From: a virus
Taxonomy: Duplodnaviria > Caudoviricetes
Virus record (IMG/VR): IMGVR_UViG_3300042935_001404
Direction: 5' to 3' (one strand)
DNA length: 64,000 nucleotides
The position numbers were made by a program, and so were the translations under genes. How positions within the stretch are numbered: position 1 is the first letter of the stretch; every line of letters begins with the position of its first letter. Shown here piece after piece: positions 22,624 to 29,724 of the stretch. The notes below the pieces were generated by a model. That model saw only the letters and a program-made list of their open reading frames with translations. It was not told where the DNA came from and ran no database searches.

Positions 22624-23943
22624 TTATTGAGATCTTAACCACTGAATTAGTCGTCGATGTAAATTATAAAGTTTTTTACTAGATCCTGGATCTTGTTTTA
22701 ATATTTTTTTTCGTATCGCTCTTCGAAATATGCCACGTGGTTTTTTGACGAGTCGAAATGCATCTATAAAATTTGTTTTTAATTCTTCAATTACCTGTTG
22801 TTGAAATGCATCGCTAAAAAAATGTTTTTTGTTAAAATCCGCTATGCGTCTAATTTCTAGTAAAAATTGATCAAACTCCGGTGCGCCAAGAGAATTAATT
22901 TTATTCAGGCTGTTGATAATTTTTTCAAGTCTTAACAAACTATTTGTCTCTTGATCATAACTTTCGTCAATCCAAGGAGCAAATGTTCGAAATCCGTAAC
23001 TTCTTAGATATTCTAAACTATGCGGGCCTGCTGCCAACACAAATGGATGTCCGCAGGCAATTGGTCTCAGTATCTTTTCTGTCAAGTGAATTCTTGAGTC
23101 GTCAAATATAGTTTCCAAAACTACACTTATTGCAGTTGAATTAAAATCATCATGATTGTACTGTGCGCTTTCGTTGCTGTCACTGTGATTGTCTTCAAAC
23201 AGATCTAGTACAGTGCTGTCTTTGAGCGCAAAATTAATATTTTTAAATTTGTGGTCCCGGTAATGATACCCTTGATCGCCTTCGGACCGTCTTGATATAC
23301 TGATTTTACTTTGTTCATGCAATCCATGTTTGACCAACAACTCTATAAACTTTAATCTGTATTCTCTAGTGTTGCCCCAGGCACGATTGTATATTAGGAA
23401 TTTTTTACAAACTTGAGATTGCGTTGTTAGCCGAGTATCTATCTCGGCAAATCTATACCAGTCACGAGCAATAATTGCATGGCACCAATAATAAACTGGT
23501 AAAAAATTATTTTGAGAATACTGTTCTAAGTCAACAGAATTTTTTTCAGAATGCAGTAAAATTGCCTGTTCATAAAGAGATCCACACAACAATGGTATTG
23601 ACAATAAATTTTTATCAACCGCCGCTTGACTACTTATTTTGGCCACAGTGGGTTCGTTTAATGCAATGTGTAATGACACAGGATCAATATTTGTATAAAA
23701 ATTATAATGCAATGGCTCTTGGTCGTGTGCAACAACTGGAATGTTAATAAAATATGTTAGGCCGTCAACACCATTGGCGCCAAGAGCAGTCAATGCATCA
23801 AGATCAGTTAATGTATCAATATCAGTCAATGGTCTGAGGTCAGAAATATCTTTACTACCGTGAGGATAAAATCTGTAAAATGCTGTCGGAACAGGTATAA
23901 TCGATTGCACCCAGTGGTACAAATTGTCTAAGGGAATGTTCAT
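22624..23943 (-). CDS. Putative GT-B/GT10-like glycan-modifying protein, paralog 3
   Basis: ISVVLETIF...HLTEKILRPIACGHPFV...LRSYGFRTF...DESYD. Confidence 0.55.
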   Translation of the reverse strand: MNIPLDNLYHWVQSIIPVPTAFYRFYPHGSKDISDLRPLTDIDTLTDLDALTALGANGVDGLTYFINIPVVAHDQEPLHYNFYTNIDPVSLHIALNEPTVAKISSQAAVDKNLLSIPLLCGSLYEQAILLHSEKNSVDLEQYSQNNFLPVYYWCHAIIARDWYRFAEIDTRLTTQSQVCKKFLIYNRAWGNTREYRLKFIELLVKHGLHEQSKISISRRSEGDQGYHYRDHKFKNINFALKDSTVLDLFEDNHSDSNESAQYNHDDFNSTAISVVLETIFDDSRIHLTEKILRPIACGHPFVLAAGPHSLEYLRSYGFRTFAPWIDESYDQETNSLLRLEKIINSLNKINSLGAPEFDQFLLEIRRIADFNKKHFFSDAFQQQVIEELKTNFIDAFRLVKKPRGIFRRAIRKKILKQDPGSSKKLYNLHRRLIQWLRSQ

Positions 23944-23970
23944 GCCATTGGATTTTGTCTTTGAATAAAA

Positions 23971-24003
23971 GGTAATTTAATTCTGTTACGAGGATAAATT
24001 ACC
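23971..24003 (-). terminator. 3' hairpin/terminator of the tmRNA coding piece
   Basis: GGTAATTTA/TAAATTACC 9-bp stem followed by TTTT. Confidence 0.6.
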
Positions 24004-24280
24004 AAAAACCCTAGGCAGTGTTTAGACTGCCAATGCTTCCTTGGCTGTACGAGCAGAGAACTTGACGTTCTTACCAGAAACAGTTACGGTTTTGTTTACG
24101 TTTGCATTTACGTTTTTTGCTTGATTAACGGTCATCGCCTACCGTGCTGTCCACTTGTTTACTTGTTGCCCTGTCGAATCTAGTGCTCCCCCACCTAAAT
24201 ATACTGAATACATTTAGGTGGAGGAGGGGGGATTCGCACCCCCGTCCAAGACACTTTTCTCTTTGCTTCATACAGCAATA
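23971..24280 (-). ncRNA. ssrA: Circularly permuted (two-piece) tmRNA
   Basis: Acceptor piece (~24280-24217, T-arm GGGGG-TGCGAAT-CCCCC then CTCCTCC-A-CC) precedes a 24-nt spacer and the coding piece starting GGGGGAG-CACTAGATTCGAC (24192); G3.U70 pair; tag 24105-24022 ANVNKTVTVSGKNVKFSARTAKEALAV* with the stop codon in a hairpin loop. Confidence 0.92.
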
Positions 24281-24285
24281 ACTCT

Positions 24286-24293
24286 TATTTATA
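24286..24293 (-). promoter_or_regulatory. T4-type late promoter TATAAATA upstream of tmRNA
   Basis: Exact octamer about 6 nt before the acceptor piece. Confidence 0.6.
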
Positions 24294-24295
24294 AT

Positions 24296-24370
24296 TGGTT
24301 GCGGGGGAAGGACTCGAACCTCCGGCTTCCAGGTTATGAGCCTGGCGGTCTACCACTGACGTACCCCGCG
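24296..24370 (-). tRNA. tRNA-fMet(CAT), initiator-like
   Basis: C1:A72 mismatch, loop CT-CAT-AA; anticodon stem ends AGG/CCT rather than GGG/CCC. Confidence 0.88.
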
Positions 24371-29101: not shown

Positions 29102-29194
29102 CCATATAAAAGCACACTATATGCGCCCTGGTTGTTAAGCGCCACTAACAGCCTGCAACCACGCAGGGTAGCCGTGTAATGTGCTTTTATATGG
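29102..29194 (-). ncRNA. Candidate structured ncRNA immediately 3' of tRNA-Lys
   Basis: 15-bp closing stem CCATATAAAAGCACA/TGTGCTTTTATATGG enclosing two internal hairpins. Confidence 0.45.
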
Positions 29195-29265
29195 TAGGGG
29201 TGCAGGGGAACGATCCCTGTTTTACGGATTAAAAGTCCGTTACTTCACCTTAAAGTTTCACCCCC
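29192..29265 (-). tRNA. tRNA-Lys(TTT)
   Basis: Loop CT-TTT-AA; atypical T-loop ATCGTTC; G1.U72. Confidence 0.9.
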
Positions 29266-29388
29266 TAATGGGCTTTGTTTTTGTGCTCGACGCAGAGCCT
29301 TGTTGCTCTTACGATGCGAACCTGCTTTGCGGAACAGTGCAAGACGAACGAAGCAGTTACGTTCGCGCACGATCGATTTACGTTTCAT
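29245..29388 (-). CDS. 47-aa basic peptide reading into tRNA-Lys (possibly ArfA-like)
   Basis: AAAGGA SD; MKRKSIVRERNCFVRLALFRKAGSHRKSNKALRRAQKQSPL|GGETLR*; stop codon lies in the tRNA D-loop. Confidence 0.7.
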   Translation of the reverse strand: MKRKSIVRERNCFVRLALFRKAGSHRKSNKALRRAQKQSPLGGETLR

Positions 29389-29407
29389 ACAGTTTCCTTT
29401 TATAAAA

Positions 29408-29483
29408 TGGTGGAGGATAACGGATTCGAACCGTTTGCTCCTGGTTGCAAACCAGGTGTGTTAGCCAAGTATACCAATCCCCC
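29408..29483 (-). tRNA. tRNA-Ala(TGC)
   Basis: G3.U70, A73, loop TT-TGC-AA. Confidence 0.96.
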
Positions 29484-29484
29484 A

Positions 29485-29724
29485 ATATGCTCTGCATCCC
29501 CCGGCGGTAATTATAGAGTATCAACATAGATTAATCCGGAATCTAACTCAACTAAGGTTAGCGATTCTATGCATCACACACTCCTTCCACCCGCTTCCCG
29601 ACAGGGACCGTTATCGCATTGCTAGCGGCCTTTTGGTAAGAAGACTACCACCCTTGAGTAACGAACTCACTTCTCTCGTACGGGTCATACTAGCCAGGCG
29701 TTACCCCGACGGGTTCTTCTCTCA
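29485..29724 (-). ncRNA. Candidate ~240-nt structured ncRNA directly upstream of tRNA-Ala
   Basis: GC-rich, no credible ORF, consecutive hairpins with GUAA and GCAA tetraloops and a T-loop-like TTCGTTA. Confidence 0.55.

What the first reader, a model, noticed from the sequence alone, without database searches (positions are those of the whole stretch)
29245..29388. Small basic ORF whose stop codon lies inside tRNA-Lys: RNase P would create a non-stop mRNA (ArfA-like logic)
Seen: a strong SD (AAAGGA) and a 47-codon K/R-rich ORF missing from the ORF track. The tRNA-Lys 5' end (29265) falls exactly on the codon 41/42 boundary and the TGA lies in the tRNA D-loop. The six other ORFs that end directly upstream of tRNAs stop 2-11 nt before them. 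Known: E. coli arfA mRNA is cut by RNase III into a non-stop message, so ArfA accumulates only when tmRNA tagging fails. The peptide has a weak ArfA-like N...LFR...K/R pattern. Inference: a backup ribosome-rescue or ribosome-binding factor gated by tRNA processing and by the phage's own tmRNA.
Basis: partly seen in the sequence, partly recalled or inferred. Interest (0 to 1): 0.82.

Follow-up and report, generated by a model that had tools for sequence, protein, structure and literature searches.

The report
Stop-less peptide gene fused to tRNA-Lys
A real, strongly conserved gene for a tiny basic peptide runs without a stop codon straight into a lysine tRNA, so cutting out the tRNA should leave a message with no stop; the same undescribed peptide family also occurs in bacteria next to an RNA-repair gene, which points to a new backup factor for freeing stalled ribosomes.

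Summary
The ORF at 29388..29245 (minus strand) has a Shine-Dalgarno site. Codon 41 ends one base before tRNA-Lys(UUU), and the TGA lies in the tRNA D-loop.

The ORF is a real gene. Third codon positions vary 2-3 times more than first and second positions. The core motif is RN.FV.LALFRKAGSHRKSNKALRR.

Among 96 unique phage junctions, 83 run into tRNA-Lys(UUU) with no earlier stop. They do so in all three frames, and 15 read through the whole tRNA. The upstream neighbour varies. A tRNA-less phage subgroup instead runs into long perfect stems.

An HMM search found 571 clusters, some in proteobacterial chromosomes. Several bacterial members carry a hairpin or terminator inside the ORF before the stop, as real arfA genes do. 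At least 14 lie just downstream of the RNA ligase gene rtcB.

Of 10 near-complete carrier phages, 9 encode a permuted tmRNA. Some also have an RF-1-domain hydrolase, and one has RtcB beside the module.

Homology to ArfA or the KGG family (said to include ArfT) is not detectable, and no Pfam, NCBIfam or PHROG family matches.

Best reading: an undescribed peptide family expressed from non-stop mRNA, here truncated by RNase P, probably acting in ribosome rescue. That function is inferred, not shown. The scan had noted this stretch before, on this same genome only.

The parts
29245..29388 (-). 47-codon ORF for the basic peptide. Conserved core is codons 1-38; codons 42-47 and the TGA are tRNA-Lys sequence.
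   Evidence: Homologues. Coding signature.
29266..29388 (-). 41 codons that would remain on the message after RNase P cuts at the tRNA-Lys 5' end. This is the predicted non-stop mRNA body.
   Evidence: Coordinates. Cleavage by RNase P is inferred from general tRNA biology, not measured.
29395..29399 (-). Shine-Dalgarno AAGGA, six nt before the ATG.
   Evidence: An SD-like motif is present in 66 of 76 unique upstream regions of homologues.
29408..29483 (-). tRNA-Ala(UGC) 19 nt upstream. Its 3' processing would define the 5' end of the mini-mRNA. This neighbour is variable in relatives.
   Evidence: At least 14 different upstream tRNAs were seen.
29192..29265 (-). tRNA-Lys(UUU). Its 5' end is the predicted RNase P cut that removes the stop codon. 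This is the conserved downstream partner.
   Evidence: It is the partner in 83 of 96 unique junctions.
29102..29195 (-). Long inverted repeat that begins with the tRNA's own ACCA. The arm sequence is conserved (ACCATATAAAA[AG]CACA.. / ..TGTGTTT[CT]TATATGGT) and the interior is hypervariable. It is probably a processing stem and forms the third part of the module.
   Evidence: present after tRNA-Lys in most loci. Function not tested.
23931..24345 (-). Phage-encoded permuted tmRNA, about 5 kb away. It is the candidate controller of a non-stop product.
   Evidence: RF04321, 129.9 bits. Found in 12 of 15 carrier contigs, and in 9 of 10 that are at least 90% complete.

Best explanation
The ORF encodes a peptide with a functional length of about 38-41 aa. 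It belongs to an undescribed family of small basic proteins found in large freshwater phages and in some Gamma/Betaproteobacteria.

In phages the gene has no stop codon of its own. About 7-11 codons after the conserved core it enters tRNA-Lys(UUU). RNase P cleavage at the tRNA 5' end, here after codon 41, should therefore leave a short Shine-Dalgarno-bearing message with no stop. Ribosomes reaching its end would be handled by trans-translation, using host tmRNA plus the phage's own. Untagged peptide would then accumulate only when that capacity is exceeded. This is the logic of arfA and brfA, with tRNA excision as a new truncation device.

The peptide itself most likely binds the ribosome as a backup rescue factor. 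It would act within a phage toolkit of replacement tRNA-Lys, tmRNA and, in some genomes, an RF-1-domain hydrolase and RtcB. Such a toolkit would keep translation running when tRNAs or mRNAs are damaged, for example by anticodon nucleases that cut tRNA-Lys.

Shown: the gene is real, the stop-less junction is conserved, and the family, its contexts and its co-occurrences are as described.
Inferred: RNase P cutting before or faster than translation, tmRNA control, ribosome binding and rescue.
For: 1. Real gene. Entropy at codon positions 1/2/3 is 0.63/0.46/1.31 bits, with 42314 synonymous against 22472 nonsynonymous codon differences in 92 unique cores. An SD-like motif is present in 66 of 76 unique upstream regions.

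2. Conserved stop-less junction. Of 96 unique junctions, 83 enter tRNA-Lys(UUU) with no earlier stop, and none has a stop before an adjacent tRNA-Lys(UUU). There are 22 junction classes, the three frames are used 36/25/22 times, and 15 read through the whole tRNA. C-terminal tails are therefore hypervariable translated tRNA. A cultured example is Synechococcus phage BUCT-ZZ01.

3. The same logic with other devices. The phage 'KSKK' subgroup runs into stems of about 15-24 bp instead. Bacterial members have strong hairpins or stem-plus-U-tract terminators inside the ORF before the stop (L145, L148, L152, L146, L144, L149). True arfA genes fetched as controls look the same.

4. Context. The gene lies about 50 nt downstream of rtcB in at least 14 bacterial loci, involving two peptide subtypes. 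rtcB-prfH is a known rescue-plus-repair pair (PMC9304027, PMC6514570). Permuted tmRNA occurs in 9 of 10 near-complete carrier phages. A small RF-1-domain ORF occurs in 4 of 15 contigs, 1.8-8.5 kb from the module. The only phage RtcB found lies 350 nt from the module.

5. Motif. The RK[AG]GSH.K motif resembles ArfA KGKGS and ArfT KKGGSTNKK, which bind the mRNA channel (PMC6299226).
Against: - No significant similarity to ArfA: Pfam PF03889 gives no hit at E<=10 and hhalign probability is below 1%. Pfam KGG gives no hit at the peptide loci. There is no PDB sequence match.
- Some homologues have ordinary stops and no obvious truncation device: ACP17 and V45v66, L064, L059, L077, L094, L123, and the Rariloculaceae clade with acidic tails.
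- The strict tie to tRNA-Lys(UUU), rather than to any tRNA, is not predicted by the non-stop logic alone.
- Metatranscriptome contigs cover the ORF only at depth 3-60. Some of them span both the tRNA-ORF junctions. They cannot show ends.
- The hairpin-energy contrast with control gene ends is modest (median -38.6 vs -33.8 kcal/mol, p=0.001) and was not corrected for relatedness.
- Carrier phages may be related to one another, so the tmRNA co-occurrence is not independent evidence.
Confidence: 0.45

Rival explanations
1. A partner specific to tRNA-Lys. The peptide would bind, protect or help mature the phage tRNA-Lys(UUU), or inhibit an anticodon nuclease that targets tRNA-Lys (PrrC or PARIS AriB type). 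The fusion would simply guarantee co-expression in equal amounts.
For: The downstream partner is tRNA-Lys(UUU) in 83 of 96 unique junctions, although at least 14 different tRNAs occur upstream. tRNA-Lys is a known nuclease target and phage tRNA-Lys is a known counter-measure (PMC11464382, seen). Bacterial members sit beside the tRNA-repair ligase gene rtcB. A conserved stem follows the tRNA.
Against: Bacterial members, the phage KSKK subgroup, ACP17 and V45v66 have no tRNA-Lys nearby. Co-expression does not require loss of the stop codon or read-through in all three frames. The tie can also be explained as a locked junction: the ORF end must abut a processing site, so the pair cannot be separated by recombination.
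Confidence: 0.17
2. An ordinary small RNA- or ribosome-binding protein translated co-transcriptionally from the unprocessed precursor. The overlap with the tRNA would be genome compaction and the variable tail would be harmless, with no non-stop regulation.
For: Some homologues have normal stops. RNA-library contigs span the tRNA-Lys/ORF and tRNA-Ala/ORF junctions at low depth, although carried-over DNA cannot be excluded. AF2 predicts only a single helix.
Against: Other genes in the window stop before their tRNAs. Fifteen junctions would add 25-45 residues of translated tRNA to a 38-aa core. Translation through the tRNA would fight its folding. Relatives in bacteria and other phages place hairpins or terminators before the stop.
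Confidence: 0.2
3. A cis-acting leader ORF. Ribosome progress through its Lys codons and into the tRNA would set the folding or processing rate of tRNA-Lys, giving feedback on Lys-tRNA supply. The peptide would be a by-product.
For: The ORF has six Lys codons, mixing AAA and AAG. It is physically coupled to tRNA-Lys(UUU).
Against: There is strong amino-acid-level conservation at non-Lys positions (N11, A17, L18, G23, H25), with free synonymous change. Homologues exist as stand-alone bacterial genes.
Confidence: 0.08
4. Not a gene: a chance ORF in a conserved non-coding spacer.
Against: Codon-position entropy and the excess of synonymous change. A conserved SD-like motif. 571 clusters at E<1e-3 in a profile search. 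Homologues at about 40-50% identity in bacteria align without gaps.
Confidence: 0.02

Closest known systems
ArfA (alternative ribosome-rescue factor A, PF03889; E. coli yhdL)
   Same: It is a small basic peptide whose gene has no usable stop before an RNA truncation site, so the product is made from non-stop mRNA and kept low by tmRNA. The C-terminal residues beyond the truncation point are dispensable and variable. It has an LFR segment and a basic K-G-x-G-S-like motif. Real arfA loci fetched here show the same in-ORF hairpin or terminator as the bacterial members of the new family.
   Different: There is no significant sequence similarity. The core is shorter by about 8 residues between LFR and GS. 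In phages the truncation device is a tRNA (RNase P) rather than RNase III or a terminator. RF2 recruitment is untested.
BrfA (B. subtilis) and ArfT (Francisella)
   Same: Both are independent small basic RF-dependent rescue factors. BrfA is also made from non-stop mRNA. The ArfT tail KKGGSTNKK resembles RK[AG]GSH.KSNK, and ArfT has a normal stop, like a minority of this family (PMC6299226, PMC6881298).
   Different: The Pfam KGG model, which PMC6514570 links to ArfT-like proteins, does not hit the peptide loci. No direct alignment to ArfT or BrfA was made, because neither sequence was held.
rtcB-prfH rescue-and-repair operons
   Same: A ribosome-release component is encoded next to the RNA ligase RtcB. 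Here the peptide gene follows rtcB in at least 14 bacterial loci. One jumbo phage has an RF-1-domain ORF, the peptide/tRNA-Lys module and RtcB within 4 kb.
   Different: PrfH is a release-factor homologue of about 200 aa with its own hydrolase domain. This peptide has none and would have to recruit a release factor or act otherwise.
Mitochondrial tRNA punctuation
   Same: Excision of a flanking tRNA defines the mRNA 3' end, and some such mRNAs lack a complete stop or are non-stop (PMC9674279, seen).
   Different: In mitochondria polyadenylation usually completes the stop. Here nothing would restore one, and the arrangement is confined to one gene family.

Membership tests
ArfA (PF03889) | Significant match to the family profile | tested here: not met
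   There is no hit at E<=10 for the window peptide, BUCT-ZZ01, 9 distant family members and 10 bacterial members. hhalign of an ArfA alignment against the family alignments gives probability 0.3-0.7%. The genome-wide PF03889 search does not flag any of the 12 carrier genomes.
ArfA (PF03889) | Conserved KGKGSY.RK motif in the tail that enters the mRNA channel | tested here: inconclusive
   The family has [RK]K[AG]G[SAV]H.K[ST].K at the equivalent place. This is a resemblance only, with no statistical support.
ArfA/BrfA-type regulation | The ORF lacks a stop upstream of an RNA truncation site, so the product comes from non-stop mRNA | tested here: met
   This is met at the level of gene architecture only. 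83 of 96 phage junctions enter tRNA-Lys without a stop. Other phage members enter long stems. Several bacterial members have in-ORF terminators or hairpins. Actual RNA 3' ends were not obtained.
ArfA/BrfA-type regulation | Product repressed by tmRNA tagging | not testable with these tools
   The only evidence is co-occurrence: permuted tmRNA in 12 of 15 carrier contigs.
RF-dependent rescue factors (ArfA, BrfA, ArfT) | Binds non-stop 70S ribosomes and recruits RF1 or RF2 for peptidyl-tRNA hydrolysis | not testable with these tools
   Complex prediction with RF2_ECOLI gave no verdict. That is evidence neither for nor against binding.
ArfT-like / KGG repeat (PF10685) | Match to the KGG profile | tested here: not met
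   The search of five carrier genomes gave no match at the peptide loci. The best hits were elsewhere, at E 0.07-4.

The most novel reading that the evidence does not exclude
Phages, and some proteobacteria, carry a previously unrecognised class of backup ribosome-rescue factor. In phages its synthesis is licensed by RNase P excision of tRNA-Lys(UUU). The replacement tRNA, the rescue peptide and a phage tmRNA would together form a counter-defence cassette against anticodon nucleases that cut tRNA-Lys and jam ribosomes. The bacterial rtcB-linked copies would be the cellular 'repair plus rescue' version of the same cassette.
Probability: 0.3. Interest if true: 0.92.

Novelty: new variant of a known kind. 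Interest (0 to 1): 0.82.

Why it matters
If the reading holds, it would add a fourth family of small release-factor-type rescue peptides, after ArfA, BrfA and ArfT. It would be the first such family in viruses.

It would also show that tRNA excision by RNase P can be used as a gene-regulatory device to make a non-stop message. And it would link ribosome rescue to tRNA damage and repair, through tRNA-Lys, RtcB and tmRNA, in the phage-host arms race.

Even if the rescue function is wrong, two results stand. A peptide gene that is systematically fused, without a stop and in any frame, to one particular tRNA is a new kind of gene architecture. And the family (571 clusters at E<1e-3, with no Pfam, NCBIfam or PHROG entry) is mostly left unannotated.

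The idea is directly testable with a small cassette in E. coli.

Tried and rejected
Searches that found nothing:
- Pfam, NCBIfam and PHROG scans of phage and bacterial members gave no family.
- A PDB profile search gave no hit at E<=10.
- The protein-atlas search returned only unnamed clusters and a weak DUF7230 lead at 0.86, which was not confirmed by Pfam.
- Literature searches for the peptide motifs and for ORF/tRNA/RNase P non-stop designs in phages found nothing relevant.

Tests for homology to known rescue factors:
- hhalign against ArfA was not significant.
- The Pfam KGG model did not hit the peptide loci.

Structure and binding predictions:
- Complex prediction with RF2_ECOLI and the 41-aa peptide scored 0.00. 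This is no verdict, and counts neither for nor against binding.
- AF2 predicted a single helix over residues 12-37 at pLDDT 78, too simple for a fold search.

Tests that turned out uninformative:
- Phyletic complementarity with ArfA: the peptide is in 12 of 400 genomes and ArfA in 5 of 400, with no overlap, but the expected overlap is only 0.15.
- Metatranscriptome contigs had low depth over the ORF and give no ends.
- tmRNA within 2.5 kb of the module was found in 1 of 133 loci, but the flanks are too short for this to mean anything.
- The unusual T-loop AUCGUUC of the window's tRNA-Lys is not specific to the module.

Considered and rejected:
- A structured non-coding RNA instead of a gene, because of the coding signature.

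Full report
**Observation.** On the minus strand an ATG at 29388 opens a 47-codon frame that ends with TGA at 29247-29245. AAGGA lies at 29399-29395, six bases before the ATG. ARAGORN and Rfam place tRNA-Ala(UGC) at 29483-29408 and tRNA-Lys(UUU) at 29265-29192. Codon 41 therefore ends at 29266, one base before the tRNA, and the stop occupies tRNA positions 19-21. In the same window, six other ORFs of 40 aa or more that lie upstream of tRNAs stop 2-34 nt before them. The other frames that stay open across a tRNA 5' end begin about 45-80 codons upstream, in stretches of closely packed tRNA genes; I take them as spurious, though none was checked for a ribosome-binding site.

**It is a real gene.** A word-indexed search found 112 homologues. 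Two scans of IMG/VR gave 132 loci. A profile search of 1.84 billion representatives gave 571 clusters at E<1e-3, of which 68 were below 1e-10. The core is M-K-R-K-x(3-6)-R-N-x-F-V-x-L-A-L-F-R-K-A-G-S-H-R-K-S-N-K-A-L-R-R. N11, A17, L18, K21, G23, H25, K27 and K30 are invariant in the phage alignments. In 92 unique cores the entropy at codon positions 1, 2 and 3 is 0.63, 0.46 and 1.31 bits. Synonymous codon differences outnumber nonsynonymous ones by 42314 to 22472. An SD-like motif precedes the ATG in 66 of 76 unique upstream regions. No Pfam, NCBIfam or PHROG model and no PDB sequence matches. The motif strings appear in no paper of the held library.

**The stop-less junction is the conserved feature.** After residue 38 or so the homologues diverge completely, and their tails read as translated tRNA. 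I ran ARAGORN on all loci and removed duplicates.
- There are 96 unique junctions.
- In 83 of them tRNA-Lys(UUU) begins 21-47 nt after the ..H.K..K motif, and there is no in-frame stop before it.
- None has a stop before an adjacent tRNA-Lys(UUU).
- There are 22 different junction classes.
- The three reading frames relative to the tRNA are used 36, 25 and 22 times.
- In 15 junctions the frame stays open through the entire tRNA, so the first stop lies 79-127 nt past its 5' end.
- The upstream neighbour is one of at least 14 different tRNAs.

The cultured Synechococcus phage BUCT-ZZ01 has the same arrangement, annotated only as a hypothetical protein.

The 13 remaining junctions fall into these groups:
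- two are cut by contig ends (L078 and L079; Rfam finds a truncated tRNA in L079);
- one is an internally deleted tRNA-Lys remnant (L080);
- one (L131) I read as a probable remnant, judged only from its peptide tail, which resembles translated tRNA-Lys in L124 and L132;
- four belong to a 'KSKK' subgroup in which the ORF runs, again without a stop, into stems of about 15-24 bp;
- five have stops of their own (L059, L064, L077, L094, L123).

Acidovorax phage ACP17 and Variovorax phage V45v66 also have stops of their own and no tRNA.

**The family is also bacterial.** Distant members lie in chromosomes. Niveibacterium sp. 24ML and a Rhodocyclaceae MAG were found through. Twelve of 400 sampled genomes of the class carry a member. 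A scan of GTDB species gave 36 loci in Ca. Thiodiazotropha, Chromatiales, Thioalkalispiraceae, Rariloculaceae and betaproteobacterial MAGs. They align without gaps to the phage core, as RNP[LV]..[HS]P[LM][LM][RK]KGG[AV]H.K...

Several carry a strong hairpin or a stem-plus-U-tract terminator inside the ORF ahead of the stop:
- L145 has a 29-bp stem and T5 just before TAA.
- L148 has a stem and T7 ten nt before TAA.
- L152 has a 22-bp stem, with the stop about 45 nt later.
- L144, L146 and L149 have stems of about 24-26 bp.

In the Thiodiazotropha clade a hairpin of -35 to -50 kcal/mol is conserved. The stop, by contrast, falls in its loop, at its foot, or up to 27 codons beyond. Five real arfA genes fetched as positive controls show the same design. 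A crude comparison with ordinary gene ends is only modestly significant and was not corrected for relatedness. One bacterial clade (Rariloculaceae, with acidic tails) looks ordinary.

**Context.**
- In at least 14 bacterial loci the peptide gene follows the RNA ligase gene rtcB by about 50 nt on the same strand. Two peptide subtypes are involved.
- RtcB is known to pair with the release-factor homologue PrfH in 'rescue and repair' operons (PMC9304027; PMC6514570).
- Among whole carrier contigs, a permuted tmRNA scores above the Rfam cut-off in 12 of 15, and in 9 of 10 that are at least 90% complete. None encodes SmpB.
- Four of 15 encode a small RF-1-domain ORF 1.8-8.5 kb from the module.
- The single RtcB found in 22 contigs lies 350 nt from the module, in a 344-kb genome. 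In that genome the RF-1-domain ORF, the peptide/tRNA-Lys module and RtcB lie within about 4 kb.
- The window itself carries the tmRNA about 5 kb away.
- These phages may be related to one another, so the co-occurrences are suggestive rather than independent.

**Relation to known factors.**
- Homology to ArfA is not supported. The Pfam ArfA model gives nothing at E<=10.
- hhalign between an ArfA alignment (E. coli, three other enterobacterial sequences and five divergent sequences) and the family aligns only DPLFR with HPMLR, or LLHDPLFRQ with FVRLALFRK, at probability below 1%.
- The Pfam KGG model, which one paper links to ArfT-like proteins, does not hit the loci.
- The basic RK[AG]GSH.K segment resembles ArfA KGKGS and ArfT KKGGSTNKK. 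That is a resemblance, not a test.
- The complex prediction with E. coli RF2 returned no verdict.
- AF2 gives a single helix.

**Mechanism.** Three apparently different devices occur in one family: a tRNA (RNase P), long stems (RNase III-type substrates) and intrinsic terminators. All sit between the conserved core and a stop codon whose position is not conserved. The simplest common explanation is that the functional message ends at the processing site and has no stop. The product would then be subject to trans-translation, which is the ArfA/BrfA logic. The contexts (tmRNA, RF-1-domain hydrolase, RtcB, and tRNA-Lys as a nuclease target) point to ribosome rescue under RNA damage.

My estimates:
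- that the gene is real: about 0.97;
- that the non-stop design is functional: about 0.65;
- that the peptide is a rescue factor: about 0.4;
- for the whole reading taken together: 0.45.

The strict tie to tRNA-Lys(UUU) remains only half explained. Either the junction is simply locked, because the ORF end must abut a processing site, or the peptide has a function specific to tRNA-Lys. That second possibility is my main rival.

**RNA evidence.** Lake metatranscriptome contigs cover the ORF only at depth 3-60, and some of them span both the tRNA-ORF junctions. Contigs cannot show ends, and DNA carry-over cannot be excluded. The decisive experiments are 3'-end mapping with and without RNase P, peptide levels with and without ssrA, and an in vitro release assay.

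Noticed in passing
window 29102-29195 (-); also L004-L136 just after tRNA-Lys: A long inverted repeat starts with the tRNA-Lys ACCA end. Its arm sequence is conserved across loci (ACCATATAAAA[AG]CACA.. / ..TGTGTTT[CT]TATATGGT) and its interior, 10-90 nt long, is hypervariable. Some interiors contain T-arm-like GGTTCGAATCC. It may be an RNase III-type processing stem or a small RNA. There is no Rfam match.
   Followed up: partly
window 29573-29660 (-), within the unnamed RNA upstream of tRNA-Ala: In four lake metatranscriptomes, contigs matching this roughly 85-nt stretch reach summed depths of thousands (up to about 30000), against less than 100 on the flanks. One variant replaces 29516-29585 with 26 other letters. 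This looks like a very abundant or widely conserved structured RNA. There was no Rfam hit at E<=1.
   Followed up: no
L064:1771-2226: A GOLLD RNA (RF02032, 223 bits), with a tRNA nested inside it, lies about 275 nt upstream of the peptide gene in a 145-kb viral contig.
   Followed up: no
L013, L019, L022, L027, L032, L033, L074 (just after tRNA-Lys): In these loci the tRNA-His that follows tRNA-Lys is enclosed by an extra stem of 10-14 bp that extends its acceptor stem (for example AAAGTTCTTAGGGG...CCCCTAAGAATTTTT). This is a different flanking-stem design from the ACCATATAAAA element.
   Followed up: no
L157 (G063:C62:1-600): A bona fide arfA gene (PF03889, 36.9 bits) ends with its own TGA. 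About 10 nt later comes what looks like a tRNA-His gene, identified by eye only. This would be a cellular arfA sitting directly on a tRNA.
   Followed up: no
L068:2619-2671 and L081:2614-2671: The hairpin that the KSKK-subgroup ORF runs into contains a sigma-70-like promoter (TTGACA, 17 nt, TATAAT) in its loop and arms, directly upstream of the next tRNA.
   Followed up: no
L002:1480-1632 (Acidovorax phage ACP17): The ACP17 homologue is unannotated. Protein-level similarity extends upstream of the first ATG, GTG or TTG. A CTG that overlaps the upstream gene's TGA (CTGA) would give a full-length peptide, which suggests a non-canonical or coupled start.
   Followed up: partly
G418 (235-kb viral contig holding L120): This contig has two permuted tmRNA genes above the Rfam cut-off, at 143658-143932 and 172862-173101.
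   Followed up: no
window 29192-29265 and other tRNAs of these phages: The T-loop reads AUCGUUC, with A54 and U58 swapped relative to the usual UUCGAAU. The same variant occurs in a minority of other tRNAs in the related loci, so it is not specific to the module.
   Followed up: partly
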